From: a virus
Lineage: Duplodnaviria > Caudoviricetes
Length of the DNA: 64,000 nt
IMG/VR virus record: IMGVR_UViG_3300028586_000020
Location: 1-64,000 of that record
Strand: one strand, 5' to 3'
A program made the translations under genes and the position numbers. Shown here in pieces: positions 1,186 through 58,126 of the stretch. Below the pieces are notes generated by a model. That model was not told the DNA's origin and made no database searches. It saw only the letters and a list, made by a program, of their open reading frames with translations. Each line of letters opens with the position of its first letter. Position 1 is the stretch's first letter.

Positions 1186-1740
1186 ATGTCTGTATGCAAA
1201 AAGATCGACATGAGTACCAACACCCTGACAGGGGTGAACTGTAATGAAGTGTTGAAAGAGCTCATTGACAAAGGACACATCAACAAAAGAAAATTAGCCC
1301 ATCAGTTAAAAGAATACTACCGGCTGAGCTTCTCCGATGCGGAAGAACGTTACAGCAATGTCATGCGGGCGATCTTTGAAGAGAAGCTGTGCTATCCTCA
1401 GCTCAGGGACATTCTCCAAGTTATGGGCGGTGAAATAATCGTTGGTTTCAAGATACCTCAAGAACCAGTTCAACCAAAGAACCTGATTGTTGGAACGTAT
1501 CCAGCCATTTGGGACCAAACAATCAACGCTATCGATTTACCAGATAATACATTGCGTCTTTTACGTTCTGCCGGTATTCATTACATCGGTCAACTCTGTC
1601 GATGTGGGCGGGAAGTCCTCCTGGATCAAGTTCCGATTGGTCAGGATTCGAAAACATCGATCGACGATTTCATGAGCCGCCATGGTTTGCATTTTGGCAT
1701 GTCAAGGATTATTTGGATTCCTCCAACATCATCTACCTGA
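1186..1740 (+). CDS. Protein with a C-terminal RNA polymerase alpha-CTD-like domain
   Basis: WDQTINAIDLPDNTLRLLRSAGIHYIGQL...HGLHFGM...WIPP matches the alpha-CTD pattern (I..LdL..R..N.L....I.Y.GdL...GL.LGM....WPP). Confidence 0.7.
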   Translation: MSVCKKIDMSTNTLTGVNCNEVLKELIDKGHINKRKLAHQLKEYYRLSFSDAEERYSNVMRAIFEEKLCYPQLRDILQVMGGEIIVGFKIPQEPVQPKNLIVGTYPAIWDQTINAIDLPDNTLRLLRSAGIHYIGQLCRCGREVLLDQVPIGQDSKTSIDDFMSRHGLHFGMSRIIWIPPTSST

Positions 1741-2927: not shown

Positions 2928-3578
2928 ATGAAACGTTTTACCCTCGCAATGCTGTTCATGCTGTCGCTGTTTGGTAACGCCAACGCTGCCATGGTCGGCA
3001 CCCCGATCGACGAAGGCACCACCACGTGCCTCCCGTTTGGCTGCGCCGCCGGCGACGGTCAGTATCAGCAGATCTACTTCGCCGAGTCGTTCAAGCGTGA
3101 CATGAACTTCATCGGCCTGGACCTGATGATCGCGCCGCACTCGATCGGCGCTGGCGAACACTGGCTGAGTGATGGCTTCTTCACCATCACGCTCTCGCTC
3201 TTTAGCCAAGACATGCTGCCGACTGTGGGCATGCTCGGTCACGCTGAGAAGACCGTGTTCAAAGGTTACCTGCCAGCCGCTCAGCGTGGCAATAGCTACC
3301 GCATCAACTTCGACAAGATGTTCTACAACAATTCGGCTGACATCAACAACTTGTTGCTGAACATCAGCTGGACGGGCGCTGCCGCCAGCGACGATCCGAT
3401 CCACTTCACCAAAGCGTCCGGCACCTGGAGCCAGATGATCAAAGATGGCAAAATCGTCGATGCTGAACAATACGGCCTCCTGACCCGTTTTGTCGAAGTG
3501 CCTGAACCAGCCTCCATCGCTCTGATGGGCCTGGGTGTCCTGGGTCTGGGCATCACCCGTCGTCGTCGCAGTAAGTAA
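2928..3578 (+). CDS. PEP-CTERM sorting-domain secreted protein
   Basis: RBS AAGGAG at about 2915; signal peptide MKRFTLAMLFMLSLFGNANA; C-terminal VPEPASIALMGLGVLGLGITRRRRSK (PEP motif, TM helix, basic tail). Confidence 0.9.
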   Translation: MKRFTLAMLFMLSLFGNANAAMVGTPIDEGTTTCLPFGCAAGDGQYQQIYFAESFKRDMNFIGLDLMIAPHSIGAGEHWLSDGFFTITLSLFSQDMLPTVGMLGHAEKTVFKGYLPAAQRGNSYRINFDKMFYNNSADINNLLLNISWTGAAASDDPIHFTKASGTWSQMIKDGKIVDAEQYGLLTRFVEVPEPASIALMGLGVLGLGITRRRRSK

Positions 3579-3921: not shown

Positions 3922-4010
3922 GCTACATCCATTAGCCAACTTTCTTCGGAAGGTAGGCTAATGGATGAGAATCTTCTCATCCTACAATTAACAACATAAG
4001 GAGTTTTATC

Positions 4011-4995: not shown

Positions 4996-6246
4996 ATGAA
5001 ACATCAACAAGAAGCATTCACCCTCAATTCCAATTTCTCGAAACTGAAGGTGATCGGAGAAGCTGCCAGTGCCAACATTCACATGGACCTGGCCATCTTC
5101 GATTTGATGGAAGATGGAAATAAACGCACCATCAATGATATCGTCAGCATGCTGGCTGTCCTGGGTTATAACCGCGCCGACCTCAACCGTCGCGTGGTCG
5201 CCATGCTTTATAAGAAGGAAGTCTTCACGCAGTGCGGAAACGGTAACGGTCGGGCGCCTGAATACGTGATCAAGAAAACGGCCAAGCGTCCTATTGCTCG
5301 GACCAAGGAAACGCCGAAGATGAAAGAAAGCGAAATCCAGATTCGGAAGGCCGTCGACACGCCGTTCAAGCCAGAGCCGGCAGCAGTTATCGTCGAACCC
5401 ATCGCTCCTGCGCCAGTGGCAGAAGAACCGACGCCGGCAGTCGAAGCAGCCCCGTCGTACGTCGTCAGCCCGACCGACGCGGTGAAAGTGGCGATCTGGA
5501 AAACCATGTCGGACTTCCAGCCCTACACGTTGGCGGATCTGGCCACGCTGCTCGACCACATCACCGAGCGCAGCATCAAAGCAAATCTGGCGATGATGGT
5601 TGACGAGAACATGCTGACCCCTACCCGTCAACCTGCTAACAAGCCAGCTGTCTACCACCTAAATAAAGGTGTGCCGATGCCGACGGGTCTGCCGGATTAT
5701 AAGCCCCGTTTTGACATCCGTAAGAACGTTTCAGCGGACGCTGAAACGCCACCTGCTAAACAACCCGAGGAAAGTACCATGCAACTGACTACCCCACAGC
5801 AAGATGTATCGGTGACGCCAACGCCGGACTGGGAACAGAAGCTCGATAGCCTGACCGACCTGGGTAACGAAGCTATGGCTTCGGTGCGGGCACGGATGGC
5901 TGAAACCGCCCGTGAACAGTTCGGTGAACCACTGCAACAAGTCGAGACGAAGAAGGCCGATACGCCTGAAGGCTCGCATGTCAAGCCAGTGGAACCGGCA
6001 ACCACTCCATTGATCCAAGTGGGCGGCATCTTCATCAAAGGCCAACGTTTCAGTTTCAGGGATGCTTTGGTAATCCTAGATGAACTCGAAGGCGCCGGTT
6101 TTACGGAGGATGATGTCCATGGCGACCTCAACAACGGTAACCGTAAGTTCGTGCAACTCGAACTGAAAATCAAGATCGCTGGTATGGTCTTGTCGGTATC
6201 GGAAGCAAAAGACGTGGCGCTCCAACTCAAGAGCGATCTGAACTAA
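4996..6246 (+). CDS. Protein with two putative winged-helix domains and Pro/Ala/Glu-rich linkers
   Basis: AIFDLMEDGNKRTINDIVSML...EYVIK and AIWKTMSDFQPYTLADLATLL...VYHLNKGVPMP both fit a wHTH-like helical pattern ending in a beta wing. Confidence 0.6.
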   Translation: MKHQQEAFTLNSNFSKLKVIGEAASANIHMDLAIFDLMEDGNKRTINDIVSMLAVLGYNRADLNRRVVAMLYKKEVFTQCGNGNGRAPEYVIKKTAKRPIARTKETPKMKESEIQIRKAVDTPFKPEPAAVIVEPIAPAPVAEEPTPAVEAAPSYVVSPTDAVKVAIWKTMSDFQPYTLADLATLLDHITERSIKANLAMMVDENMLTPTRQPANKPAVYHLNKGVPMPTGLPDYKPRFDIRKNVSADAETPPAKQPEESTMQLTTPQQDVSVTPTPDWEQKLDSLTDLGNEAMASVRARMAETAREQFGEPLQQVETKKADTPEGSHVKPVEPATTPLIQVGGIFIKGQRFSFRDALVILDELEGAGFTEDDVHGDLNNGNRKFVQLELKIKIAGMVLSVSEAKDVALQLKSDLN

Positions 6247-6330
6247 TCATCTCGAACGCGGAGTCGCCTATGGGTGGCTCCGTCGTATGAGGGTTTATCT
6301 GAGAGACTGCGGTTTCTCAGATGTATCCTT

Positions 6331-6350
6331 TTTTAAACCTATATTACAAT
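6331..6350 (+). promoter_or_regulatory. phiKZ-type early promoter motif TATATTAC
   Basis: TATATTAC at 6340-6347 matches the reported phiKZ early consensus; followed by a GAGGAG RBS and ATG 6371. Confidence 0.55.
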
Positions 6351-6370
6351 TAACAACAGAGGAGTTTCTC

Positions 6371-6523
6371 ATGGACCGTATCAACGAATTTAATAACAGC
6401 GCCCTCGCCAAATCCATCGCTGGCGAACAACGTGACAAGAGTGATAGCAAGATCACCAGCATCGCTACCGGCGTTGTGATGCTGCTGTTGGTAGTGGCTT
6501 TCAAGTACGCAATCGGTAACTAA
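6371..6523 (+). CDS. 50-aa small membrane protein
   Basis: GAGGAG RBS; C-terminal hydrophobic IATGVVMLLLVVAFKYAI. Confidence 0.65.
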   Translation: MDRINEFNNSALAKSIAGEQRDKSDSKITSIATGVVMLLLVVAFKYAIGN

Positions 6524-6532
6524 ACGACATAC

Positions 6533-6572
6533 TTCGATAGAGCGAAAGCTCTATCGAGGGGTCTTTTTTATT
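6533..6572 (+). terminator. Rho-independent-type terminator
   Basis: ttcgatagagc-gaaa-gctctatcgag, then a T tract. Confidence 0.75.
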
Positions 6573-6602
6573 TTGTCTCTTTATAAAACGAAAGGAATTA
6601 AC

Positions 6603-7022
6603 ATGGCAACCAAAGCAGGTAAGGTCCAGCTCAAGGACATCAAGCGCGGCAAGACGTTTTACTACGTGCGCGTCGACTTCCCCATCATCTCCGCAGGCGT
6701 GGTAGGATTGGGTGAAGTGGAATCCGTGGTACGTCTACGCGTGACATCGCGACCATATCTGCGTCGTTTGTCCAACACGATGGCGTTCCAGTACATCAAT
6801 GACTCGAACGCGGGTGGCTACATCGATCTCGAACAGATGGAGCGCAACCATCGCCAAAATGAACTGACCGAAGAAGGACAGTATTTTGTCTTGCTGAAAA
6901 GCCGACAGGCCGCAGAACGCTTCATCAAGATGTTCGATGATCGTCCGCCTAGCAAAAAAGAAACGGTGCGTACGCTGTTGCGCGAAGCTAACCTGAACGC
7001 CAAGCAACGCGGTTTCTCCTAA
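6603..7022 (+). CDS. Hypothetical protein
   Basis: AAAGGA RBS before ATG 6603. Confidence 0.7.
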   Translation: MATKAGKVQLKDIKRGKTFYYVRVDFPIISAGVVGLGEVESVVRLRVTSRPYLRRLSNTMAFQYINDSNAGGYIDLEQMERNHRQNELTEEGQYFVLLKSRQAAERFIKMFDDRPPSKKETVRTLLREANLNAKQRGFS

Positions 7023-7043
7023 TAACAAGAAAGGATCTCCACC

Positions 7044-7466
7044 ATGAATCAAGGTTTTATCTTGGTCGATCGTCCGACCGCGCAAGTGTCGTTCAACTTT
7101 CGGCATTTGGACGAGCAGGAAGTGCATACCGTTATTCTTGCTCTGCGTCGTCAGTTTGTTGAGCTGTCGGCCGCCATCGAAAACCCGCAAGGCAAAGAGC
7201 TGAACAGTGCACAAAAGACGACGCTGATTCACCAGCGTCGTGATCTGCTTTCTCTGATGGAACAGTTCGATGGCGTGCAACCTGCGCTCACTCAACTGCT
7301 CGGCCAAAAGCGCCGCATCAGCGTGAATTCACGTCCTCTGCTCGACGCGCAGATCGAACGTGTATACACCGCGCTGGTCTGGTACCGCGACAACTGGGTG
7401 CTCGAACAAGATTCATTGCGTCAAATGGTCGTGAACGTGATCGGCTACCTCGAAGACACCCTTTAA
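7044..7466 (+). CDS. Hypothetical helical protein
   Basis: AAAGGA RBS; 140 aa. Confidence 0.7.
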   Translation: MNQGFILVDRPTAQVSFNFRHLDEQEVHTVILALRRQFVELSAAIENPQGKELNSAQKTTLIHQRRDLLSLMEQFDGVQPALTQLLGQKRRISVNSRPLLDAQIERVYTALVWYRDNWVLEQDSLRQMVVNVIGYLEDTL

Positions 7467-7479
7467 CCAAAAAACCACC

Positions 7480-8556
7480 ATGAAACCAAAAACCTTCCAA
7501 AGTATTTCCTCGGACAACAACCTGTTTGACTATGACCATCTCGTGCGTGTTATGGTTAAAGAAATGGGTATGACGTTCGAAGAGCACACCAACCGCATCA
7601 CGGCGCATCTGCGCAAAAAACACCCAGAAGCGCCCGAGTATTTGTTGTCGGCACTGATGGCGGCATTCATTACCGCAGAGATGACTCCTGGGCATTTCAT
7701 GGAAATGATGGATGCGCTTGGCTGCGCCGTGTCGATCACGATCACGCCGCCGATCCTGGCAGGTGACCGGCCGGAATCGAAGACGACATCGGCGGATACC
7801 GTGCCAAAGGTGTTCAGTTATCCAGCGCTCTGGGATGAATCGATTGATGTGCTCGATCTGCCACTGCGCGCTACCAACGTTTTACGACACCTCGGCGAGA
7901 TCGAATTCGTCGGTCAGCTGGTGCGCAAGAAGCCGGAAGATCTGATGAAAATCCGTTCGTTCGGTAACGTACTGTTGCAACACGTTCACACGGCGCTACG
8001 CGAACAAGGTTTAAAGTTTGCAACGGACACGACCGGCTGGATGTCGCCCGCAGCTCGCGCGGCTGTAGCCAAGTGGCAACACGAATCTATCGTTAAGTTC
8101 AATCTTGGCGGGGATATCATTGCTGTCTTGCGAAAGGAAGGGGTGGAATCGATCGGTCAGCTGCTGTGTTACTCGTGGCCGGATTTGGAAAAGCTGTCGC
8201 TCGACGGATCTCAAATCCACCAGATTAGCCAACTGCTTCAGCGCCATGACATGTTATTGGGTTTGCTCAAGTATGCACAGACACCCATCCTCGAATACAA
8301 AACCGAGTTCAAGACCTATCCACCGTCGTGGAACAAAACGGTGTATGAACTGGATTTGTCGGCACGGTGGCAAAATGTCCTGTGGGCAAACAACATCTAC
8401 TATCTCGGTCAACTAACCAAGCTTGAAGAGAAAGAAGTGATGTTGTGGCAAAACATGGGGAGTGTCGGTCTCTCCCGCCTGAAAGAAGCAATGAAGAAAC
8501 ACGGTCTCGTGTTTGGACAAGACACCGGCAACTGGCAAGTGCCGGCACCACGTTAA
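7480..8556 (+). CDS. Protein with three tandem RNAP alpha-CTD-like domains
   Basis: WDESIDVLDLPLRATNVLRHLGEIEFVGQLVRKKPEDLMKIRSFG; SIVKFNLGGDIIAVLRKEGVESIGQLL; WNKTVYELDLSARWQNVLWANNIYYLGQLTKLEEKEVMLWQNMG. Confidence 0.8.
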   Translation: MKPKTFQSISSDNNLFDYDHLVRVMVKEMGMTFEEHTNRITAHLRKKHPEAPEYLLSALMAAFITAEMTPGHFMEMMDALGCAVSITITPPILAGDRPESKTTSADTVPKVFSYPALWDESIDVLDLPLRATNVLRHLGEIEFVGQLVRKKPEDLMKIRSFGNVLLQHVHTALREQGLKFATDTTGWMSPAARAAVAKWQHESIVKFNLGGDIIAVLRKEGVESIGQLLCYSWPDLEKLSLDGSQIHQISQLLQRHDMLLGLLKYAQTPILEYKTEFKTYPPSWNKTVYELDLSARWQNVLWANNIYYLGQLTKLEEKEVMLWQNMGSVGLSRLKEAMKKHGLVFGQDTGNWQVPAPR

Positions 8557-8568
8557 AGGGAAAGTAAC

Positions 8569-9030
8569 ATGAACCAAAGCAAATCGAATGCGGATTTTCT
8601 GCTGTGTCAAGACCTGTACTGGGAAATCATGAATTCCCCGGTATCGAAAACATTGGAGCAGCAGGAATGCGCGCAAGCGTATTTCAGCAACCAAGATGTC
8701 GAGGGATTGGAAGCCATCAAGAAAGAACTGGGGATCTTCGCCGATCCCCAGCAAGATGATAGCTTTTCCAGCCAGTGCCTGCAATGCGATGGTGGCGGGT
8801 CACCACTCTGGACTGATAAAAAGCTCAAGCAAATGCGCGAGCGCTCGGACGCCTTCCAGGATTACACGGGACCTGATAATCCAGCAGGCCAACTTAAGCG
8901 CCGTTATCCTGCTACGGAACCGATAGACCATTCTTCTCTGTCTGACCTCGACGCTATGCATGATGCGCTGGACCAAGCCGAGGAAGAGCGTAAGAAAGGA
9001 AAAGGGATCGACAATGAAAAGTCGTCCTAA
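8569..9030 (+). CDS. Hypothetical acidic protein
   Basis: AAGGGA RBS; 153 aa. Confidence 0.65.
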   Translation: MNQSKSNADFLLCQDLYWEIMNSPVSKTLEQQECAQAYFSNQDVEGLEAIKKELGIFADPQQDDSFSSQCLQCDGGGSPLWTDKKLKQMRERSDAFQDYTGPDNPAGQLKRRYPATEPIDHSSLSDLDAMHDALDQAEEERKKGKGIDNEKSS

Positions 9031-9196
9031 GAAAGCGCCTACGAACTGGCGACTGATGTGGTACCAAGTCGTTGAAGGTGCTCGTCGTCTGAAGTGGCAT
9101 ACCGGCAGCCGTTACGAATGCGAGGTGTTGCAACGCGTTTGCATCGCTGCTGGTGAATGGCATCAACTTAATGAACCTGGTTCATTCGTAGAGTAA
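9014..9196 (+). CDS. Small hypothetical protein
   Basis: MKSRPKKAPTNW..., overlapping the end of the previous gene and followed by a hairpin at about 9202-9227. Confidence 0.5.
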   Translation: MKSRPKKAPTNWRLMWYQVVEGARRLKWHTGSRYECEVLQRVCIAAGEWHQLNEPGSFVE

Positions 9197-9261
9197 TCTC
9201 TTAACCACTGCGCAAGCGGTGGTTAGTGGATGGACTTCTTACAATTTAACAAGGAAAAACC

Positions 9262-9615
9262 ATGGAACAAAATACCGTTGACTTAACCTTCCACGAAACC
9301 GATAACGCTAACACTTGTTTGTGGAAAGCAATGTACGGCAAAAACTGGATGACCACCAAGGAAATCCTGAAGGCACTCGAAAATTGCCAGTACAAGCCGA
9401 ATACCATCAAAGTTAAATTGTCCAAAGCCATCCCTCACATGGTCGAGCGCAAGGGCGAACCGCACAGCATGAACCAACTCGGACACATCGGCTGTCTCTT
9501 CCGCTTGGTAAAGGACACCCCCATGCCTACCGGTTCGACCCGCACCACCGAGAAGCAGCGCGAAGTCAAACGTGAAACCTTCCAACGCTTCAATCCGTTC
9601 GGTATGCCGATTTAG
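9262..9615 (+). CDS. Winged-helix-like protein, paralog of the domains in 4996..6246
   Basis: LWKAM...WMTTKEILKAL...FRLVKDTPMPTG parallels IWKTM...YTLADLATLL...YHLNKGVPMPTG. Confidence 0.6.
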   Translation: MEQNTVDLTFHETDNANTCLWKAMYGKNWMTTKEILKALENCQYKPNTIKVKLSKAIPHMVERKGEPHSMNQLGHIGCLFRLVKDTPMPTGSTRTTEKQREVKRETFQRFNPFGMPI

Positions 9616-9630
9616 CAACAGAAAGGAATA

Positions 9631-10017
9631 GTGATGTCAAAATCGAATTATCATAGCGTTACCGGTTTCAAAGAAGCCAACCTCTTTTTTGATTTCCAAA
9701 AGGGTCGTTTGGTCATGACGGCTGAAGTAAGTAGCTGGCGCGAAAATACCGATCCGAAAAAAGGCGTGTACAGTTTTGTCAAGGCAGTTGTCAATCATAC
9801 GCTCGATGGCGATGCAGAAGGAATGAACGAGCAGTTTTTGAACATCAACTTTGACGTCAGTAAGATACTCACTGATGAACTTCAAAGTTGCAGTATGGGT
9901 GGCATTACAACGGGTAAGATTCGCATGAGTGCGGAATACAAGCCCAAGTTTACCAAGCTGTCGGAAGAGTTCAAGAAACTGGCGGCAACGCTCGACGCTA
10001 TTAAGTACGAGGAGTAA
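9631..10017 (+). CDS. Hypothetical protein
   Basis: AAAGGA RBS; 128 aa. Confidence 0.65.
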   Translation: MMSKSNYHSVTGFKEANLFFDFQKGRLVMTAEVSSWRENTDPKKGVYSFVKAVVNHTLDGDAEGMNEQFLNINFDVSKILTDELQSCSMGGITTGKIRMSAEYKPKFTKLSEEFKKLAATLDAIKYEE

Positions 10018-36224: not shown

Positions 36225-36667
36225 CCACCTTAACAGACAAAGCCCTGTTTCACCAATGCATGTTGAAGTTTCTGAAAGAGAGCCAACTCAATCGGATACA
36301 AGACAAGCCACACCTGGTCTTTCTGACAGGACGTGGTAAAGCAGGGGTTGATGCATTGTTGTATAACTGGGTTCAAGAACACGGTTACCATTGGGCAGAA
36401 TTCTATCCCAATTGGAACGACGTCGAAGTTGAAGGCGCCATCGTGAAGTACCGCGATGGCAAACCTTACAACTGTATCGCTGGGTTTTGGCGCGATGAAG
36501 AAATGGCAGAAGTGTGTACTCATGGAGTTACTTTCTATGACGGGGTGCAATCAAGCACCCGTGACATGATCGATCGTGTAACTGGGGGTGGTAATCCCTG
36601 CGCGATCTATCTTGTCACCGTAGACAAGGATGAGGACACACATGCCAAAGAACAGGCGCGCCGCTGA
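36047..36667 (+). CDS. SLOG family (YspA/DUF2493-like) protein; start uncertain
   Basis: YRVVVFG...GRGKAGVDAL...FYPNW...AGFWRDEEMAE...FYDG..SSTRDMI, the SLOG pattern. Confidence 0.7.
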   Translation: MPARWSLGTDGLDLPLQERCPSMRDQNRGADHPSERTSSGRIDKERLSEFRYRVVVFGLTTLTDKALFHQCMLKFLKESQLNRIQDKPHLVFLTGRGKAGVDALLYNWVQEHGYHWAEFYPNWNDVEVEGAIVKYRDGKPYNCIAGFWRDEEMAEVCTHGVTFYDGVQSSTRDMIDRVTGGGNPCAIYLVTVDKDEDTHAKEQARR

Positions 36668-37316
36668 GGCAGTAATCTTAAAACGCATCGAACAAATGAG
36701 TCCTGGCGGTCCCACGCCAGAGATCTATCGCAAGATGTTTGCGAAGATGGATGACGCCGCGTTCGATGCGTTCATGGCAACACTGAAACACCGTCAGGGA
36801 CGTTTGGCGATTATCGAGTCGAACATGTCTGCCACCAAGCTCACCATCGAAAATGCGTTAGCGGTGGCCAAAGACATGAACCACGATTTCTATCAACGCA
36901 TTTGGATCAATCCGAATGATGGTAAATCGCCAGCGTTCCTGACCAACAAAGCATACCTAGTGCTTGACTTGCCCTACCGCCGCCAAGCACAGCTGTTGGA
37001 AAAGAAAGCCCGTATTCCGAAACACAACCGCTCGGTCGATGAGTTAACAGGCCAAGCAGCTGGTGATTCGAAAGGCAGTAAACTGTCGTCCCCTGAAATC
37101 CAAGTGCTCGCTGCACTGGACTTACCGAACATGATTACGGAACAGATCAAGTTCCGTGGTGGTGACGTCAAAGGGTTTGATGCCATGAACAACATGATCG
37201 ACAAAACCGGGTCAGTGTCGATGGAAGCGATCAACCATTTGGCAGGTGGCGTGGAGTCCACGCGAACATTGTCGACGTATTTGACGGCAATGCACTTGTC
37301 GAATTCTTTGGTTTGA
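36630..37316 (+). CDS. Virion RNA polymerase beta subunit, C-terminal part (gp149-like)
   Basis: DELTGQAAGDSKGSKLSSPEIQVL...EQIKFRGGD corresponds to the RpoB C-terminal switch/clamp region. Confidence 0.85.
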   Translation: MRTHMPKNRRAAEAVILKRIEQMSPGGPTPEIYRKMFAKMDDAAFDAFMATLKHRQGRLAIIESNMSATKLTIENALAVAKDMNHDFYQRIWINPNDGKSPAFLTNKAYLVLDLPYRRQAQLLEKKARIPKHNRSVDELTGQAAGDSKGSKLSSPEIQVLAALDLPNMITEQIKFRGGDVKGFDAMNNMIDKTGSVSMEAINHLAGGVESTRTLSTYLTAMHLSNSLV

Positions 37317-52067: not shown

Positions 52068-53687
52068 ATGCAACGTTCGATGCTGCCGTTTAATGTGTCG
52101 CTTTTGCACATGACTCCTGCGAAGTTGGCTGGTTTAGCGCCAATCACGTCGCTGTCGATGTATGAAGGCATTACCAACATCTTCCATCCAGAAGGATTAT
52201 TTTCGACCAAGATCTTCGGCCGTGTGGGTGATGATATCCGCGCCCGTCGTTATGCGTACATCGATATCAAAGTGTCGGTGTTCCATCCCGTCATCTACAG
52301 TACCCTGTTGTCGCTCAAGCGTCTTTATGGCGGCATCATGTCTGGTCAAGAGTATGCTGTCTGGAACCCCGAGAAGAAAGACTTCGATCGTTCCGATGTC
52401 ATGAATGGCGAGACCGGCTACCATTTCTTCATGACGTATTGGGACAAAATCGAATTCACCAAAACCAATAGCGACAAACGTGACATCGCGATCCAGCTCA
52501 TTGAAAAGTATAAGAAGGAAGCGACAACGACCAAGATCGTGGTGTTGCCTGCCGGTCTTCGCGACGTTGAGATTGGTGGTGACGGCCGTCCTCGCGAAGA
52601 TGAAATCAATCCGTTGTACCGTCAGTTGCTGGGCGTGGCCAACACCCTGTCAGATATTGCGATCCGCTCCACCCCGGAGTTGATCGATCGGGCCCGCTTT
52701 AAACTTCAAACTACTTTCGTCAATATTTACGAAATGTTTGAACGCCTGATCTACGGCAAGAACAAACTGATCCAAGGCAAGTGGGCTAGCCGCCGCATCA
52801 TGAACGGCACTGGTAACGTCATTACTGCGTTGCCAGTAGAAACGCCTTACTTGGGCGCCGAAGGGGCTGTAGGGTTTAATGATACTGCCATTGGTTTATT
52901 CCAACTAATCAAAGGCGTGTTGCCAATTGCGCTCTACAAACTCAAGCATGGTTGGTTGCGCCAGGTGTTTCCCGACTACAGTCTGCCAGCGATCTTGGTC
53001 AACAAGAAAACGCTCAAAGCTGAACCGGTAACATTAAAGACGGAATACTACGATCGTTTCCAAACCAACGAAGGCTTAGAGAAAGTCGTCAATGCTTTCC
53101 GAGAAGAGTCGATCCGTGATCAGCCCATGGAAATCGAAGGCTACTACGTTGGCTTGATTTACAAAGGACCGGACGACACGTTCAAGATCTTTAACGACAT
53201 TGACGAGTTGCCTCCCAACCGTAACCGCGCCGACGTTTATCCATTAACGTTTTGTGAACTGGTGTATTTATCAGGCTACCGCGTCTGGAATACCTATCCG
53301 GCCACTGTGACGCGTTACCCTGTTACGGGGGTGGGATCGATCTATCCGACGAATCTGTACGTGCGCACCACCACAGTAGCCGAGCGTCGTAAAGAACTCG
53401 GCCGTAACTGGGAACCACTTGACGACAGTTACACTGCCCTAGAATTTCCGATTCCTGGTCCGTACATGAAATCGATGTCGCCGCATCCGACTAAACTGGC
53501 CAAGCTTGACGCCGACTTCGATGGTGACATGATGAACTGTAACATCGTGTATTCAGAAGAAGCAATCGAAGAAGTGAAAAATTACTTCACGAAACGGCGC
53601 GCGTATGTCGGCACCAATGGCGAATTCATTTCTAGTACCGCAGTCCATACCGCCAATCTCGTCCTCCACAATCTCACAGGTGATTAA
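52068..53687 (+). CDS. Virion RNA polymerase beta-prime subunit, N-terminal part (gp180-like)
   Basis: Catalytic DADFDGD motif; GLFSTKIFG; VVLPAGLRD. Confidence 0.92.
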   Translation: MQRSMLPFNVSLLHMTPAKLAGLAPITSLSMYEGITNIFHPEGLFSTKIFGRVGDDIRARRYAYIDIKVSVFHPVIYSTLLSLKRLYGGIMSGQEYAVWNPEKKDFDRSDVMNGETGYHFFMTYWDKIEFTKTNSDKRDIAIQLIEKYKKEATTTKIVVLPAGLRDVEIGGDGRPREDEINPLYRQLLGVANTLSDIAIRSTPELIDRARFKLQTTFVNIYEMFERLIYGKNKLIQGKWASRRIMNGTGNVITALPVETPYLGAEGAVGFNDTAIGLFQLIKGVLPIALYKLKHGWLRQVFPDYSLPAILVNKKTLKAEPVTLKTEYYDRFQTNEGLEKVVNAFREESIRDQPMEIEGYYVGLIYKGPDDTFKIFNDIDELPPNRNRADVYPLTFCELVYLSGYRVWNTYPATVTRYPVTGVGSIYPTNLYVRTTTVAERRKELGRNWEPLDDSYTALEFPIPGPYMKSMSPHPTKLAKLDADFDGDMMNCNIVYSEEAIEEVKNYFTKRRAYVGTNGEFISSTAVHTANLVLHNLTGD

Positions 53688-53692
53688 GCTTT

Positions 53693-56600
53693 ATGCTGCT
53701 TGACTTTAATCTCTTTTATCGCAACTACGGCTTGCGGCGCGTCGAACAATTGATGGCGCCACGCTTTGGTCACTTGGAAAACTTCCAACTGCCCCGTCGT
53801 GCGATTTTCCATAGTGCGCACGGAAGCCCTAACCAGTATGGTCCGTCCGATAACGACGTGGCGCTGCAAGGATTTTCAGCTGCGATCATGAAAGACAACC
53901 GGGTCGTGCAGAAAGCGCAAGCGCGCAACATCTGGATGCACCACGTGTTAAAGCTCGCGCCGGGCTATCTGGGACAGCCACAAAACCAATCGACCCAGCC
54001 CGCAGCGTTGATTCGCCAATACCACCAACATTACCGTCGCTTCCGCAACTCGCAAGATGAGAAAGCGCTGGCCGATGTGAACAGTTTGATGGTGTACAAC
54101 TACAATGTCTTGCCGCACTTGCTGCGCTACCCGCGCGGTCAGTTCAATCAGTACCTGGAATGGTACAACATTGAGCGCACGATGTGGTCGGAAATTGCCC
54201 GGTTAGCCCAGATCAGTGACCGACCGCAATTCGTGTTGTGTCATGTGCCACAAGTATTGCCCCCGCGCTCGATCCTGCAACAATACGATACCATGGAGCC
54301 GAGCAAACCGCTCGCCCGTGTTACCAAAGTGTTCTATTCGAACGATCACTTGTTCTTAGGGGAAGTGTGGAAATGGTTTGGTGAAAACCGCCGTCAGTCG
54401 CTCATCGGGCTAGTGCCACGCAAATACCTGAACCGGGTTAACTTGGTGTTCTTGGAGTCGGGTCAGTGGACAACGGTGAACTTGGGGATGCTCGATTCGT
54501 GGCGTAAACCGCAGCCCGATGAAATGTTCCCCAACGAAGAAGTGCGTCCGAACTTGATTGCGCCTCTCACCTTCCAAAACCGCATTCTGCGTTTCTTCAT
54601 GTCAGTCACGCAGTTGCGTTCGGTCGCCCCTGCCGAAATAACCGACCTCAATACCCACCAGGTATTGGATGCCGACGACAAAGAAGAGTTAAAGAAAGAG
54701 TTGGCGACGATTACCAAAGTCGACAGTGGCCCGGCGGTGACGAACGCTACCACGGGCACCACCTCGATCGCCACGACCCAACTCAAAGCACAGCTCAATA
54801 GTCCTGCCGACGATAAACCGGACGATACCGCTGAGAGCGTCAAGGTCGATGCCAATCTCGACGCTTCGATCGATGCGGAATTGGCGGAGATGGAAAAGGC
54901 GCTAGCAACCCCCGAAGACGAGAGCGATGCAACAGCGCAAAACATTTTGGCCAAGCGCGAAGCTTGGATCACCACACCGCAAGCCGTGGACGCAGTCATT
55001 CCACCGCTCGAACGACCTTCGCACGAAGAAGCGCTGTTGCGTATTGCCAAGAACAACTTGGCCAGCGGTGCCATTACGGCTGCCCAGTATCGTAACTACG
55101 AACGCGTGGCCCATGCGTATAAGTCGATGAAGGCACCAGAAGGCAACATGTCGCTGGAGCAGTTCATCAACATCTCGCCTGAGTCGCTCTTGATCAGCGA
55201 ATCGAAAGCGATGCCCGACATCGAGACTGTGCCGGATAAATCGATGCTCAAGTCATCGCTGCTGGACTTCGATCAACGCTATACCAAAGAGATCATGCAG
55301 CGTGACGTGGCATCGATGGTGATGTGCTTTGCACAAGCTGGCTACGGCGTAACGGAATACGAGGTGGAGAAAGTAGACAGCCTGATGGGGGCGTACAACA
55401 TGTACACGGTGCGGGTTCTCCCAACCGACGGCGCAGCTTCCACGGTACGCTTTAAGTTGCCCATCATCGAGCCCGACGGCAGTTACATGGCCAATGGGGT
55501 GAAGTACACCATGCGTAAGCAGCGTGGTGATATCCCAATTCGTAAAACGGCGCCAGACACAGTCTCACTCACGAGCTACTACGGCAAAGCGTTTGTGCGG
55601 CGTAGTGAAAAGAAAGTCAACAACTACGCCATGTGGTTGACGAACAACCTGATGGCCAAGATGTTGGACGATGCCGACAACAGCATCACCAATGGTCACC
55701 CAGGCGACATGTCAGACAACACAGCCAAGGTGCCACGTCTGTATTCGATTATCGCATCGGCCTTCAACGGTTTCACGCTGACAACGAGTGCGCTTTCAGG
55801 ACCCATCGGCGCTACCGCTTTCCAAATGTCGTTTGACCATACCAAGCGTGAAGAATTGTTTGGTAAAGATGCCATGGCCAAATACGAGAAAGATGGCGCT
55901 ATTTTGGCCGGAGTCTCATCCACCAAGTCGCATTACTTCTTGATCGGTAAAGCAGGTCTCTGTACGTTAGTCGGTCCGACCTTAACGGGCGAAGACCAAG
56001 TTACGGAAATGGCGTTTGAACAGATCGTGGGGTTGGACCGGATGAAAGCGCCGGTCGACATTGCCGTCATGAAAGTGTCGGGCAGTGCCATTCCGCTGGG
56101 TGTGATCTTGGCGTATGAAATGGGCCTTGATCCAATGCTCGCATTACTGAAGTCAAAGATTCGCCGTGTCCCTGCGGGAACGCGGATGAATTTGGGACTC
56201 AATGAAGAAGCGGTGATCTTCAACGATGAAGCAGTGATCTTTGATAAGAACGATCGTTTGACGGGTTTGTTCTTGGGGGGTTTTAACGAGTACCACCGTC
56301 ACATCCGTCGCTACAACGTGCACCTGTTCAATAGCAAAGAAGTCTACCTGAACGTGCTCGAAGCCGACGGCTTGGGCGTACGCTATATCCGCGAGATGAA
56401 CTTGTTTTACCAAATGTTCATTGACCCGATTACACGTGACATCTTGACCGAGATGAAAATGCCAACGGACATGCGGGCGCTGCTCGTGGTCGCTGGCACG
56501 ATGCTCATGACAGATGACCACCCGGATGAACTGGACGGCGCATTCATGCGCTTGAAAGGGTATGAACGGATGGCCGGTGCCGTGTACTCGGAGATGGTCA

Positions 56601-58126
56601 AATCAATCCGTCAGCACAATAGCAGCGCAGGCAAATCGCGTTCGGCGTTGAACATGGACCCGTTCGCTGTCTTCACCGCCATCCAGACCGACCCATCGAA
56701 AGCGCTCGTTAACGAAATCAATCCGATCCAAAACCTGAAGGAACAGGAAGCTGTCACGTACAACGGCACCGGCGGTCGTAATAGCCGGACGATGACGAAG
56801 AAGACCCGTACGTACCACAAGAACGACATGGGCCTTATTTCGAGCGATACAGTCGATAGCTCGGATGTCGCGATCAACACTTCGACGTCGGCTGACCCAC
56901 AGTTCACCTCACTGCGTGGACTAACGCGTCGTTACGATGATAGCATGGGTCGTACGGCTCTGTTGTCGACAGCGGTGTTGTTAGCGCCTGGCACCAGTAG
57001 CGATGACATGAAGCGCGCTAACTTTATCGGTATTCAGCACTCCCACAGCGTAGCGTGTGCCGGCTATCATCAAATGCCCGTAAGAACCGGTTACGAGCAA
57101 GTTGTAGCGCAGCGTACTGGTGACATGTTTGCCGCTGCCGCTACTCAAGATGGTAAAGTCATTTCGGTCGCACCAACCGGTGTGATTGTGCAGTATGCCG
57201 ATGGCACCAAACAAGGCTATGAAGTCGGCCGCCGTTTTGGTAACGCAGCAGGTCTGGTGATTCCGCATGAAATCCGTGCGAACGTCAAGTTGGGAGACGA
57301 GTTCAAGAAGGGACACATTCTGATCTACAACACAGGCTTCTTCGAGCCTGATATGCTCAATCCGAACAATGTGGTATGGAAGGCAGGGTTGTTGGTAAAG
57401 ACCGTGCTCATGGAAGTTCCAGAAACCTTGGAAGACTCTTCTGCCATCTCTGCGCGGATCACCGACCGCTTGACAACGAAAGTTGCTAAGCCGGTAGAAG
57501 TGGTCGTGACGTTCGACCAAGCCATCTCAAAACTGGTCAAAGAAGGGCAAGCCGTTTCGAGCGAAGATATTTTATGCATAATCGAGGACGCTGTCACCAG
57601 TCAGGCTAACCTGTTTGATGAGAATTCGCTCAACACCCTGAAGCTGCTGAGTAACTATGCTCCGCAAGCCAAAGTCAAAGGGATCGTTGAACGTATCGAA
57701 GTGTACTACCACGGTGAGAAGGAAGACATGAGCGATTCGCTGCGTGCGATTGCAAATGCTGCCGACAAAACTTTGGCAGAACGTTTCAAGTCAACAGGAC
57801 GCAAAGTCTTGACCGGTAGTGTCGATGAGGCATTCCGCGTAGGGGGCGAACCCTTGCAATTCGAGCATCTCTGTATTCGCTTTTACATCACCTCCGAAGT
57901 GGAAATGGGTGAAGGCGATAAAGGCGTATTTGCCAATCAAATGAAAACCGTTGTTGGTAAGAAAATGGTTAGCGAATACAAAACAGAGAAAGGGGAAACC
58001 ATCGATGCGGTATTCGGTGCGCAAAGTATCGATAACCGGATTGTGCTTTCGCCGTACATCATCGGTATGTACAACGTTCTCTTAGACCTGGCAGGCCAAG
58101 AAGCGGTCGCAGCATACGAGTCTTAA
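53693..58126 (+). CDS. Virion RNA polymerase beta subunit (gp178-like)
   Basis: RKQRGD, TYNGTGGR, DDMKRANF, LEDSSAIS and GDKGVFANQMKT RpoB-like motifs. Confidence 0.92.
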   Translation: MLLDFNLFYRNYGLRRVEQLMAPRFGHLENFQLPRRAIFHSAHGSPNQYGPSDNDVALQGFSAAIMKDNRVVQKAQARNIWMHHVLKLAPGYLGQPQNQSTQPAALIRQYHQHYRRFRNSQDEKALADVNSLMVYNYNVLPHLLRYPRGQFNQYLEWYNIERTMWSEIARLAQISDRPQFVLCHVPQVLPPRSILQQYDTMEPSKPLARVTKVFYSNDHLFLGEVWKWFGENRRQSLIGLVPRKYLNRVNLVFLESGQWTTVNLGMLDSWRKPQPDEMFPNEEVRPNLIAPLTFQNRILRFFMSVTQLRSVAPAEITDLNTHQVLDADDKEELKKELATITKVDSGPAVTNATTGTTSIATTQLKAQLNSPADDKPDDTAESVKVDANLDASIDAELAEMEKALATPEDESDATAQNILAKREAWITTPQAVDAVIPPLERPSHEEALLRIAKNNLASGAITAAQYRNYERVAHAYKSMKAPEGNMSLEQFINISPESLLISESKAMPDIETVPDKSMLKSSLLDFDQRYTKEIMQRDVASMVMCFAQAGYGVTEYEVEKVDSLMGAYNMYTVRVLPTDGAASTVRFKLPIIEPDGSYMANGVKYTMRKQRGDIPIRKTAPDTVSLTSYYGKAFVRRSEKKVNNYAMWLTNNLMAKMLDDADNSITNGHPGDMSDNTAKVPRLYSIIASAFNGFTLTTSALSGPIGATAFQMSFDHTKREELFGKDAMAKYEKDGAILAGVSSTKSHYFLIGKAGLCTLVGPTLTGEDQVTEMAFEQIVGLDRMKAPVDIAVMKVSGSAIPLGVILAYEMGLDPMLALLKSKIRRVPAGTRMNLGLNEEAVIFNDEAVIFDKNDRLTGLFLGGFNEYHRHIRRYNVHLFNSKEVYLNVLEADGLGVRYIREMNLFYQMFIDPITRDILTEMKMPTDMRALLVVAGTMLMTDDHPDELDGAFMRLKGYERMAGAVYSEMVKSIRQHNSSAGKSRSALNMDPFAVFTAIQTDPSKALVNEINPIQNLKEQEAVTYNGTGGRNSRTMTKKTRTYHKNDMGLISSDTVDSSDVAINTSTSADPQFTSLRGLTRRYDDSMGRTALLSTAVLLAPGTSSDDMKRANFIGIQHSHSVACAGYHQMPVRTGYEQVVAQRTGDMFAAAATQDGKVISVAPTGVIVQYADGTKQGYEVGRRFGNAAGLVIPHEIRANVKLGDEFKKGHILIYNTGFFEPDMLNPNNVVWKAGLLVKTVLMEVPETLEDSSAISARITDRLTTKVAKPVEVVVTFDQAISKLVKEGQAVSSEDILCIIEDAVTSQANLFDENSLNTLKLLSNYAPQAKVKGIVERIEVYYHGEKEDMSDSLRAIANAADKTLAERFKSTGRKVLTGSVDEAFRVGGEPLQFEHLCIRFYITSEVEMGEGDKGVFANQMKTVVGKKMVSEYKTEKGETIDAVFGAQSIDNRIVLSPYIIGMYNVLLDLAGQEAVAAYES

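What the first reader, a model, noticed from the sequence alone, without database searches (positions are those of the whole stretch)
7480..8556. Triple alpha-CTD protein in a phage whose own RNA polymerases lack alpha subunits
Seen: three alpha-CTD-like units, two introduced by YP..W[DN].[ST][IV]..LDL and ending in GL.F...W. Known: host alpha-CTD binds UP elements, activators such as CRP, and NusA; phiKZ-type RNAPs have only beta/beta-prime-like subunits. Inference: a multivalent decoy that titrates host activators or NusA, occludes UP elements (rRNA promoters), or supplies alpha-CTD function to the phage RNAP.
Basis: partly seen in the sequence, partly recalled or inferred. Interest (0 to 1): 0.72.

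Follow-up and report, generated by a model that had tools for sequence, protein, structure and literature searches.

The report
Jumbo-phage protein with three alpha-CTDs
An uncultured phiKZ-like giant phage from leaf litter, whose own RNA polymerases have no alpha subunit, encodes a probably dimeric protein carrying three copies (two intact, one degenerate) of the DNA-gripping tail domain of the bacterial RNA polymerase alpha subunit; it most likely binds AT-rich DNA to interfere with or steer transcription, but no protein of this kind has been tested.

Summary
ORF 7480-8556 (+) encodes a 358-aa protein that matches Pfam RNA_pol_A_CTD at 84.9 bits (cut-off 23.8) in three stretches. Unit 3 of the AlphaFold2 model superposes on E. 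coli alpha-CTD (Z 13.9, rmsd 0.9-1.6 A).

- **Units:** units 1 and 3 keep the equivalents of R265, N268 and G296. Unit 2 has lost them.
- **N-terminal domain:** the 92-residue N-domain has no sequence family and looks only weakly XRE/HipB-like. It passes a homodimer prediction (0.53 against a best control of 0.00).
- **Family:** it is small and found only in metagenomes. Syntenic orthologues in related jumbo phages carry one, two or three units. A 184-aa paralogue lies at 1186-1740.
- **Conservation:** first units keep the R265 equivalent in 19 of 21 proteins, later units in 2 of 15. The activator-contact (287) surface is not kept.
- **Distribution:** five cultured relatives lack the domain, so the gene is accessory.

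My best reading is a free, multivalent alpha-CTD array that binds DNA, rather than a protein decoy.

This scan has already reported alpha-CTD fusions in other nucleus-forming jumbo phages, on other DNA (for example e1-5409608), so the theme recurs. New here are the three-unit form, the varying unit number and the predicted dimerising domain. None of the proposed functions has been tested.

The parts
7480..8556 (+). CDS of the 358-aa triple alpha-CTD protein (P0001), stop codon included
   Evidence: Open frame. Pfam PF03118 at 84.9 bits in 3 stretches. Homologues share the same N-terminus. Identical contigs from RNA libraries cover 8360-8575 and 8481-8687.
7480..7755 (+). N-terminal family-specific domain (residues 1-92): conserved F.SISSDNNLFD motif, four helices, then a beta-like segment CAVSITITPP (82-91). 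Predicted to homodimerise; weakly XRE/HipB-like.
   Evidence: AF2 models. No Pfam or PDB sequence match. Fold hits to HipB/XRE only at Foldseek E about 0.7 and VIA Z of 5 or less. ESM Atlas structural rows are HTH_3 clusters at TM 0.5-0.63. Homodimer prediction 0.53 against best control 0.00, with antiparallel pairing of 82-91.
7756..7812 (+). Linker 1 (residues 93-111), predicted disordered
   Evidence: pLDDT below 50 at 97-104 and 106-111.
7813..8052 (+). alpha-CTD unit 1 (residues 112-191). It keeps R130 (= R265), N133 (= N268) and G162 (= G296). K298 and S299 are replaced by V and L.
   Evidence: Best Pfam stretch 119-174. PDB alpha-CTD hits at 119-183. Site table.
8053..8277 (+). alpha-CTD-derived unit 2 (residues 192-266), degenerate: D, A and D at the positions of R265, N268 and G296
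   Evidence: BLASTP to the paralogue's unit, E = 8e-4. Seed HMM E = 0.0016. pLDDT 90-96 with the same helix pattern. No significant PDB match when searched alone. Groups with the second units of P0002, P0005, P0010 and P0027.
8278..8316 (+). Linker 2 (residues 267-279), predicted disordered
   Evidence: pLDDT below 50 at 267-278.
8317..8553 (+). alpha-CTD unit 3 (residues 280-358). It keeps R296 (= R265), N299 (= N268), N325 (= N294) and G327 (= G296). It is the unit closest to RpoA and a first-unit type.
   Evidence: PDB phmmer 3e-8. VIA Z 13.9, rmsd 1.6 A over 81 residues against E. coli alpha 247-329. 61% identical to unit 1 of the orthologue P0002.
1186..1740 (+). Paralogue (184 aa, P0151): N-domain plus one alpha-CTD unit, with N and R at the positions of R265 and N268
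   Evidence: Pfam PF03118 at 16 bits, below threshold. BLASTP to P0001 units at 5e-12 and 3e-11. Family profile A1 at 157 bits. Site table.
6573..7022 (+). Context: first gene of the apparent operon, a PF23772 'Phage g100-like' protein (probable start 6603). It is conserved upstream of the alpha-CTD gene in relatives.
   Evidence: Pfam 27.5 bits against a cut-off of 27. 50-68% identical proteins lie upstream of the family gene in L004, L010, L019 and L009.
7044..7466 (+). Context: 140-aa gene of unknown function, 13 nt upstream of the alpha-CTD gene
   Evidence: ORF list. No family match. A weak homologue sits directly upstream of P0008 in L009.
8569..9030 (+). Context: 153-aa gene of unknown function, 12 nt downstream
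   Evidence: ORF list. RNA-library contigs run from the end of the alpha-CTD gene into it, at 8481-8687 and 8360-8575.
6532..6559 (+). Context: terminator-like hairpin and T-run ahead of the operon, followed by the AT-rich stretch TTTATAAAAC
   Evidence: Terminator scan. Sequence. A similar arrangement lies upstream of the syntenic genes in L004.

Best explanation
P0001 is a fast-evolving accessory protein of an uncultured phiKZ-type jumbo phage. I suspect it is an early gene, but that is not shown.

Architecture. A small helical N-terminal domain is predicted to pair two chains through an antiparallel beta-strand, in the manner of HipB. Flexible linkers tether it to three modules copied from the C-terminal domain of the bacterial RNA polymerase alpha subunit. 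Units 1 and 3 keep the arginine that alpha-CTD inserts into the minor groove of AT-rich UP-element DNA, together with N268 and the hairpin glycine. Unit 2 has lost these residues and probably serves as a spacer or protein-contact module.

Proposed mechanism. The dimer displays four DNA-competent alpha-CTDs that are attached to no polymerase. In layout it resembles the alpha dimer without the surface that docks onto RNAP. It binds AT-rich DNA with high avidity. The most likely consequence is competition with the host RNA polymerase's own alpha-CTDs for UP-type promoter DNA, which would damp strong host promoters.

What is shown and what is inferred. Shown: the domain identity, the fold, and which residues are kept. 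Predicted: the dimer. Inferred: DNA binding, its AT preference, and the effect on host transcription.

Odds. About 0.55 that it binds DNA through units 1 and 3. About 0.3 that the target is host promoter DNA.
For: - Domain and fold: Pfam 84.9 bits in 3 stretches; Z 13.9 against E. coli alpha-CTD.
- Residues in this protein: units 1 and 3 keep the equivalents of R265, N268 and G296.
- Residues across the family: in 21 proteins the first unit keeps R265 in 19, N268 in 15 and G296 in 20. Later units keep R265 in only 2 of 15, one of which is unit 3 of this protein.
- Surfaces alpha-CTD uses for protein partners are not kept. The 287 determinant is variable, and position 261 is acidic in only 9 of 21 first units.
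- Identity to E. coli alpha-CTD is only 21-33%.
- The same alpha-CTD module, with R and N kept, is fused to unrelated N-domains and to helicases, and forms arrays of up to 11 units elsewhere. That is how a generic DNA-binding module behaves.
- Homodimer of the N-domain: score 0.53, best of 3 controls 0.00. That mark was reached by 20 of 30 proteins solved as pairs and 1 of 23 solved as single chains. The runs agree in at least 89% of contacts and the partner's pLDDT is at least 81. The interface is strand 82-91 pairing antiparallel with itself. The pass may reflect likeness to solved HipB-type dimers.
- Linkers are modelled as disordered, like the alpha linker (established knowledge).
- Accessory and fast-evolving: absent from 5 cultured relatives. 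It is 47% identical to its closest orthologue, while neighbouring genes are 68% and 82% identical in the same pair of phages.
- Unit number is 1, 2 or 3 at the same locus.
- Contigs from leaf-litter RNA libraries of two studies, identical to the window, cover the 3' end of the gene.
Against: - No binding of any kind has been measured.
- K298 and S299, which are part of the E. coli DNA-contact set, are not kept in units 1 and 3.
- Net charge of the units is about neutral, which does not discriminate because E. coli alpha-CTD is also acidic.
- R265 could be conserved for a reason other than DNA contact.
- The host is unknown, so mimicry of its alpha-CTD cannot be judged directly.
- phiKZ-type phages do not need host RNAP, so the benefit of blocking host promoters is assumed, not shown.
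- In a nucleus-forming phage the cell compartment in which the protein acts is unknown.
- Early expression is not shown. Only one phiKZ-type TATATTAC motif lies nearby, two genes upstream, and one match is what chance gives.
- RNA-library contigs can derive from contaminating DNA.
Confidence: 0.5

Rival explanations
1. Phage-side factor. The protein binds phage DNA, for example AT-rich tracts next to phage promoters, inside the replication compartment. There it either helps the alpha-less phage RNA polymerase find or hold promoters, or it organises the phage genome. The N-domain's invariant SSDNN motif would contact a phage protein.
For: The DNA-contact residues are kept, as in the best explanation. 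Jumbo-phage RNAPs lack alpha and no initiation-factor homologues are recognised in these genomes (PMC7598289). The N-terminal motif S10 S11 D12 N14 F16 D17 is invariant in ten family members, which suggests a conserved partner or interface. The gene is kept at a fixed position next to a conserved g100-like gene. Known early promoters of phiKZ-like phages carry AT-rich upstream tracts (Table 2 of PMC7058600).
Against: Five cultured relatives with the same polymerase genes lack any PF03118 gene, so the polymerases do not need it. Unit number and sequence change quickly, which is unusual for a core transcription factor. No contact with an RNAP subunit was tested.
Confidence: 0.2
2. Protein decoy. 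The free alpha-CTD units soak up host proteins that normally dock on alpha-CTD, such as class I activators, NusA or sigma region 4. This would uncouple host RNAP from its regulators.
For: The fold is genuine alpha-CTD. The protein is multivalent, and more so if it dimerises. Unit 3 keeps acidic residues at the positions of D259 and E261. Fast evolution fits a host-interaction protein.
Against: The 287 determinant is not kept in any unit, and R317 is replaced by D in 13 of 21 first units. Identity to E. coli alpha-CTD is 21-33%. That is lower than the identity I expect between alpha-CTDs of distant bacteria (my own knowledge, not measured here). Selection in the family falls on the DNA-contact arginine rather than on partner surfaces. 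The host and its alpha-CTD are unknown, so this is not excluded.
Confidence: 0.12
3. DNA-anchored adaptor. The alpha-CTD units only tether the protein to DNA. The active part is the N-domain, or the degenerate unit 2, which brings or blocks another factor there.
For: The same alpha-CTD module is joined to several unrelated N-terminal domains in proteins of similar size, and to a helicase. The N-domain has an invariant polar motif. Degenerate second units form their own conserved group.
Against: The N-domain is small, has no catalytic signature and no family match. Its conserved N-terminal residues lie partly in the predicted dimer interface, which may by itself explain their conservation.
Confidence: 0.1

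Closest known systems
C-terminal domain of the bacterial RNA polymerase alpha subunit (RpoA residues about 249-329; Pfam PF03118; PDB 1lb2, 3n4m, 3k4g, 9zum)
   Same: Same fold (Z 13.9, rmsd 0.9-1.6 A). Same two helix-hairpin-helix layout. The R265, N268 and G296 equivalents are kept in units 1 and 3. The units are tethered by a flexible linker to a dimerising domain, as in the alpha dimer.
   Different: It is not joined to the alpha N-terminal domain and so is not part of any polymerase. It has three units in one chain. K298 and S299 and the 287 activator surface are not kept. Unit 2 lacks all DNA-contact residues. It is encoded by a phage whose RNAPs have no alpha.
HipB and other XRE/Cro-C1-type helical domains (e.g. 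PDB 8ezt, 4yg1, 2o38; Pfam HTH_3)
   Same: The N-domain has four helices followed by a short strand. The predicted dimer pairs that strand antiparallel between chains, as I recall for HipB dimers (from memory). XRE/HipB entries dominate the weak structural matches from three searches.
   Different: There is no sequence match to HTH_3. Z is 5 or less and TM 0.5-0.63. Helix lengths and the hydrophobic third helix do not look like a working helix-turn-helix. Membership is not established.
alpha-CTD fusion proteins of other nucleus-forming jumbo phages reported earlier in this scan (e1-5409608, e1-5376002, e1-5364563 and others)
   Same: Same theme: phiKZ-like phage, alpha-less RNAPs, a genuine alpha-CTD joined to an orphan domain, fast-evolving, read as DNA-binding, untested.
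   Different: No sequence look-alike of P0001 or P0002 is indexed in the scan, so those are other families or distant members. Here there are three units, the unit number varies at one locus, and the N-domain has a predicted dimer interface.
Phage tactics that act on host alpha-CTD: T4 Alt/ModA ADP-ribosylation of R265, and phiKMV Rac-triggered alpha cleavage (PMC7552054; PMC7824862)
   Same: The supposed outcome is the same: host promoters that depend on alpha-CTD are weakened.
   Different: Those are enzymes that modify or remove the host's own alpha-CTD. This protein would compete with it as a non-enzymatic copy.
Tandem alpha-CTD arrays and alpha-CTD fusions in metagenomic proteins (P0004 with 11 units, P0013 with 6 units on a 1.87-Mb contig, P0029 helicase fusion)
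   Same: Repeated PF03118 units in one chain, used as modules.
   Different: Those have no shared N-domain. Some are cellular rather than viral. All are uncharacterised, so they give no function.

Membership tests
RNA polymerase alpha C-terminal domain (Pfam PF03118) | Sequence match to the family model above the curated cut-off | tested here: met
   84.9 bits against 23.8, E = 3.2e-24, three stretches. Six-frame search of the contig gives 41.3 and 36.4 bits for units 1 and 3.
RNA polymerase alpha C-terminal domain (Pfam PF03118) | Compact helical fold with two helix-hairpin-helix motifs that superposes on solved alpha-CTDs | tested here: met
   Unit 3: Z 13.9, rmsd 1.6 A over 81 residues against 8y5l_A1; rmsd 0.9 A over 74 residues against 3n4m_B. 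Units 1 and 2 were not reported separately. They show the same helix pattern at pLDDT above 90.
RNA polymerase alpha C-terminal domain (Pfam PF03118) | DNA-contact set (265 determinant: R265, N268, N294, G296, K298, S299, E302) | tested here: inconclusive
   Unit 1 reads R, N, S, G, V, L, H. Unit 3 reads R, N, N, G, V, G, R. Unit 2 reads D, A, S, D, S, Q, Q. The minor-groove arginine and hairpin glycine are kept in two units, the lysine and serine in none.
RNA polymerase alpha C-terminal domain (Pfam PF03118) | Activator and sigma contact surfaces (287 and 261 determinants) | tested here: not met
   Positions 285-288 and 317 differ in all units. R317 is D in units 1 and 3. Position 261 is D in units 1 and 3. 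Because the host is unknown, this was measured against E. coli only.
Bacterial RNA polymerase alpha subunit (RpoA) | N-terminal dimerisation and assembly domain (PF01000 / PF01193) that docks beta and beta' | tested here: not met
   Neither family matches in the 79-kb contig or in the complete 271-kb relative G001. The controls ring in 14 of 14 genomes. The N-domain of P0001 has no Pfam match. It is therefore not an alpha subunit, only a carrier of its C-terminal domain.
XRE / HipB-type helix-turn-helix domain | Sequence or fold match to HTH_3-type domains | tested here: inconclusive
   No Pfam or PDB sequence match. Foldseek best hit is HipB at E = 0.67. VIA Z is 4-5, with many XRE/HipB rows but below the noise guide. 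ESM Atlas structural rows are HTH_3 clusters at TM 0.5-0.63.
XRE / HipB-type helix-turn-helix domain | Homodimer through an intermolecular strand pair | tested here: inconclusive
   Prediction only: 0.53 against a best control of 0.00; the mark was reached by 20 of 30 solved pairs and 1 of 23 single chains; 82-91 pairs with 82-91. No measurement exists.
phiKZ-type jumbo phage with multisubunit RNAPs | Split beta/beta' RNAP genes and core virion genes shared with phiKZ-like phages | tested here: met
   phrog_2986, phrog_3148 and phrog_3233, all labelled RNA polymerase beta subunit. The 539-aa subunit is 54% identical to Burkholderia phage FLC9 and 42% to a phiKZ-like Pseudomonas phage. A core 660-aa protein is shared with 302 jumbo-phage records. 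A nuclear-shell gene was not looked for.

The most novel reading that the evidence does not exclude
The protein is a phage-made mimic of the alpha dimer: two chains joined at the N-domain display free alpha-CTDs that outcompete the host polymerase's own alpha-CTDs on UP elements. That would be a non-enzymatic, dominant-negative way to shut off rRNA-type and activator-dependent host promoters, by a phage that does not need the host polymerase. Alternatively, it lends UP-type DNA recognition to the alpha-less phage polymerase.
Probability: 0.25. Interest if true: 0.8.

Novelty: new variant of a known kind. Interest (0 to 1): 0.5.

Why it matters
A 2020 review states that jumbo-phage RNA polymerases lack alpha and that these genomes encode no recognisable homologue of known initiation factors (PMC7598289). 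Here a clade of such phages carries a clear copy of the promoter-DNA-reading module of alpha, detached from any polymerase, multiplied within one chain and probably dimeric.

If it binds UP-type DNA, it would be a simple new route to host-transcription shut-off, or a first accessory DNA-recognition factor for these polymerases. It would also be a compact natural reagent for probing alpha-CTD-dependent promoters.

The family gives a ready natural series of one, two and three units for testing how avidity scales. Against this, the theme has now turned up repeatedly in this scan, the domain is textbook, and everything beyond domain identity is inference.

Tried and rejected
- **No annotated relatives.** PHROGs gave no family for P0001 or for its operon neighbours. 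The word-indexed search of 5.8 billion proteins found only the query at similar length, and only 7 proteins with the N-domain profile among longer ones.
- **Cultured phages.** tblastn of P0001, P0009 and P0023 against 50,697 phage records found no family member. The hits were bacterial rpoA in mislabelled records, short fragments, and an alpha-CTD-like 'DNA binding protein' in Microbacterium phages. megablast found nothing.
- **Viral contigs.** The pattern scan with P0001 found nothing. Alignment A1 was too diverse to scan with. A3 gave two loci.
- **Records not held.** Whole-record search of the JGI/ENA contigs behind L004, L005, L008 and L010 was not possible.
- **N-domain.** There was no Pfam or PDB sequence match, and the structural matches are too weak to name a fold.
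- **Early-gene status.** One exact phiKZ-type TATATTAC lies at 6340, two genes upstream, but one match is what chance gives. The 5'-UTR-like motif AATYAACAAC is common in L004 but not enriched in the window. Sigma-70-type promoter hits were below expectation. I therefore do not claim early timing.
- **RNA libraries.** No contig covered 7471-8271 or 10141-12000. I draw nothing from these gaps.
- **Charge.** Net charge of the units does not separate DNA binding from decoy.
- **Literature.** Searches for phage alpha-CTD proteins, PF03118 with phage, and 'alpha-CTD-like' found nothing relevant. The jumbo-phage comparative survey PMC7824862 does not mention such a domain.
- **Not attempted.** No complex with DNA, host proteins or phage RNAP subunits was predicted, because the single job went to the homodimer.
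Full report
**What is there.** The window is the first 64 kb of a 79-kb IMG/VR contig that CheckV rates 29% complete. It comes from leaf-litter metagenomes.

It belongs to a phiKZ-type jumbo phage:
- It carries split multisubunit RNA polymerase genes at 36630-37316, 52068-53687 and 53693-58126 (phrog_3233, phrog_2986, phrog_3148).
- It carries a 2,429-aa tail-fibre/transglycosylase gene and other core virion genes.
- Its nearest cultured relatives are Burkholderia phage FLC9 (54% identity in an RNAP subunit) and Ralstonia phages RP12/RP31 (48%). More distant matches reach phiKZ-like Pseudomonas phages.

ORF 7480-8556 (+) encodes 358 residues. It is the third gene of a tight plus-strand group: 6573-7022, 7044-7466, 7480-8556 and 8569-9030, with gaps of 21, 13 and 12 nt. 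The group follows a terminator-like hairpin at 6532-6559.

**Check of the observation.**
- Pfam RNA_pol_A_CTD matches at E = 3.2e-24, 84.9 bits against a cut-off of 23.8, in three stretches.
- phmmer against PDB sequences finds RpoA alpha-CTDs at residues 119-183 and 282-353.
- An AlphaFold2 model built on a 21-sequence family alignment has mean pLDDT 86. It shows an N-domain (helices at 18-28, 33-47, 53-65, 70-79), three repeats of one helix pattern, and two low-confidence linkers at 97-111 and 267-278.
- Foldseek aligns a unit to E. coli alpha-CTD at rmsd 0.9-1.0 A with TM 0.93-0.95 normalised to the target.
- VIA-align puts residues 278-358 on E. coli alpha 247-329 at Z 13.9.

The three units are therefore real, but they are not equal. 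I aligned them to E. coli RpoA taken from MG1655:

| E. coli position | Unit 1 | Unit 3 | Unit 2 |
|---|---|---|---|
| R265 | R130 | R296 | D |
| N268 | N133 | N299 | A |
| N294 | S | N325 | S |
| G296 | G162 | G327 | D |

K298 and S299 are replaced in all three units. Unit 2 alone has no significant PDB sequence match. It is recognisable only inside the family and by its modelled helices.

**The rest of the protein.** Residues 1-92 match no Pfam family and no PDB sequence. A separate model has pLDDT 86.
- Foldseek's best rows are HipB and XRE regulators, at E about 0.7.
- An exhaustive VIA search gives Z of 5 or less. About half of the top rows are XRE/HipB/Cro-type domains, but this is below the level where a helical match means much.
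- The ESM Atlas structural search independently lists HTH_3 clusters at TM 0.5-0.63.

I read this as a possibly XRE-derived helical domain, not as an established member. Its third helix is hydrophobic and the helix lengths do not fit a working helix-turn-helix; that is my inference from the sequence.

A homodimer prediction of this domain passed:
- The score was 0.53 and the best of three controls 0.00.
- The mark was reached by 20 of 30 proteins solved as pairs and by 1 of 23 solved as single chains.
- The runs agree in at least 89% of contacts, and the partner's pLDDT is at least 81.
- The tightest contacts are residues 82-91 (CAVSITITPP) paired antiparallel with themselves, plus residues 1-9.
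- Since HipB-type dimers are solved, the pass may reflect that likeness. It is a prediction, not a measurement.

**The family.** An exhaustive HMMER search of 1.84 billion representatives gave 687 hits at E of 0.001 or better. About twenty share the N-domain, either as the F.SISSDNNLFD ... MDALGC type or as a second GSFS.LF type. These carry one unit (176-191 aa), two units (235-282 aa) or three units (343 and 358 aa). All are from metagenomes, and the only source name is an automatic 'RNA polymerase alpha subunit'.

The genes sit at the same place in related jumbo-phage contigs, after a roughly 430-aa gene and a g100-like gene and before the minus-strand lysis and fibre block:

| Locus | Contig | Units |
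|---|---|---|
| L010 | 184 kb | 1 |
| L019 | 271 kb, complete, terminal repeats | 1 |
| L004 | 190 kb | 2 |
| L008 | 52 kb | 3 |
| this window | 79 kb | 3 |

L009, which carries the second N-domain type, shows the same neighbours. The window also holds a one-unit paralogue at 1186-1740 whose R265 and N268 positions read N and R.

A tree of units and their pairwise identities suggest shuffling. Branch supports were not examined.
- Unit 3 of P0001 is 61% identical to unit 1 of the orthologue P0002.
- Unit 2 groups with the degenerate second units of P0002, P0005, P0010 and P0027.
- Unit 1 is nearest to first units of the second N-domain type.

**What selection keeps.** Over 21 first units, the R265 equivalent is arginine in 19, N268 is asparagine in 15, and G296 is glycine in 20. 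Over 15 later units, arginine is kept in 2. K298 and S299 are not kept. The 287 determinant is variable, and R317 is aspartate in 13 of 21. Position 261 is acidic in 9 of 21. Identity of the three units of P0001 to E. coli alpha-CTD is 21-30%, and up to 33% for the other family units measured.

The protein diverges faster than its neighbours. It is 47% identical to P0002, while the g100-like protein is 68% and the 230-aa upstream protein 82% identical between the same two phages.

Five cultured relatives (FLC9, RP12, SURPRISE13, LucasX and the phiKZ-like SL2) have no PF03118 match in six frames.

No alpha N-terminal domain (PF01000, PF01193) is found in this contig or in the complete relative, while the controls ring in 14 of 14 genomes. 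This agrees with the published statement that jumbo-phage RNAPs lack alpha (PMC7598289).

**How it most likely works.** The layout is a dimerising domain, a flexible linker and then alpha-CTD. That is the layout of the alpha dimer, minus the surface that docks on beta and beta'.

The one feature under clear constraint is the arginine that alpha-CTD puts into the minor groove of AT-rich UP DNA (established knowledge of the 265 determinant), along with the hairpin glycine. The surfaces alpha-CTD uses for activators are not kept.

The same module, with R and N kept, is joined elsewhere to unrelated N-domains, to a helicase, and into arrays of up to eleven units. One six-unit array lies on a 1.87-Mb contig. 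That is how a generic DNA-binding module is used.

I therefore favour a free, multivalent DNA binder with four competent units per dimer. The plausible effects are competition with host alpha-CTDs at UP-type promoters, or a role on phage DNA. The accessory distribution argues against a general need of the phage polymerase for it. A protein decoy is not excluded, because the host is unknown.

**Expression.** Contigs from four leaf-litter metatranscriptome libraries, identical to the window, lie within 5015-9974. Two of them, from different studies, cover 8360-8575 and 8481-8687, which is the end of the gene and the start of the next one. This is compatible with transcription, but such libraries can contain DNA.

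A phiKZ-type early-promoter core, TATATTAC (consensus as listed in Table 2 of PMC7058600), lies at 6340-6347 behind a terminator, two genes upstream. One match is what chance gives. Timing is therefore open.

**Relation to earlier work.** I found no paper on phage-encoded alpha-CTD proteins. This scan has already reported several alpha-CTD fusions in other nucleus-forming jumbo phages, including a two-unit, probably dimeric one (e1-5409608). No sequence look-alike of P0001 or P0002 is indexed there. A note on this genome flagged the paralogue (e1-5940156), and I confirmed its altered R..N.

**Verdict.**
- It is a new variant of a known kind.
- Interest is moderate. The design is neat and easy to test, but it recurs in this scan and is functionally unproven.

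Noticed in passing
window 2928-3578 (+): A phage gene whose product ends in a PEP-CTERM motif (Pfam PF07589, 28.7 bits against a cut-off of 20.7). A PEP-CTERM gene lies at the matching place in the related contigs L004 and L005. This hints at a host with an exosortase.
   Followed up: partly
window 6573-7022 (+); L004 9159-9602; L010 9562-9981; L019 5562-5981; L009 373-819: A PF23772 'Phage g100-like' protein (27.5 bits, just above its cut-off of 27) is conserved at 50-68% identity one or two genes upstream of the alpha-CTD family gene in every related contig examined. It could be a functional partner.
   Followed up: partly
L004, upstream of genes at 3656, 3854, 5009, 6759, 8218, 9159, 10001 and 12391; window 3986-3995 and 6348-6357: A conserved leader, TAATAAT(T/C)AACAACA, lies 10-15 nt ahead of the ribosome-binding site of many small plus-strand genes in the related phage L004, including its alpha-CTD orthologue. 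Only two exact copies occur in the window. It may be a phage promoter or 5'-UTR element.
   Followed up: partly
window 6296-6347 (+): A terminator-like hairpin and T-run are followed directly by AAACCTATATTAC. This matches the published early-promoter consensus of phiKZ (TATATTAC) and resembles that of phage EL, ahead of a small membrane-protein gene starting at 6372.
   Followed up: partly
proteins P0030, P0043, P0057, P0072, P0089, P0118, P0127: This is a second, unrelated N-terminal domain (motifs AEQY..., YQF.DGS..WY, LQLRG.YNG) joined to one alpha-CTD with the same YP.IWD lead-in and with the R265/N268 equivalents mostly kept (R265 in all). It points to a pool of alpha-CTD fusions sharing one module. 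Their genomic contexts were not examined.
   Followed up: no
proteins P0004, P0013, P0019, P0029, P0034: Uncharacterised metagenomic proteins carry 5 to 11 tandem PF03118 units. One (P0013, six units) lies on a 1.87-Mb contig and so is probably cellular. P0029 joins three units to a ResIII/Helicase_C helicase.
   Followed up: partly
phage records MW291018.1 15086-15316, PP978800.1 and ON081328.1: Microbacterium phages Atraxi, TrippleS and Morrill have an annotated 'DNA binding protein' (gp24/25) that matches the alpha-CTD part of family member P0009 (tblastn 1e-4).
   Followed up: no
window 8053-8277 (unit 2) and the second units of P0002, P0005, P0010 and P0027: The degenerate second units replace the N-x-G hairpin by motifs such as LTP, MTP or SLD, yet they form their own conserved group across several phages. 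They are kept for some purpose other than alpha-CTD-type DNA contact.
   Followed up: partly
window 6166: One RNA-library contig (run X4, depth 2) lacks one base at 6166, inside the 416-aa gene 4996-6246. This may be an assembly error or a strain variant.
   Followed up: no
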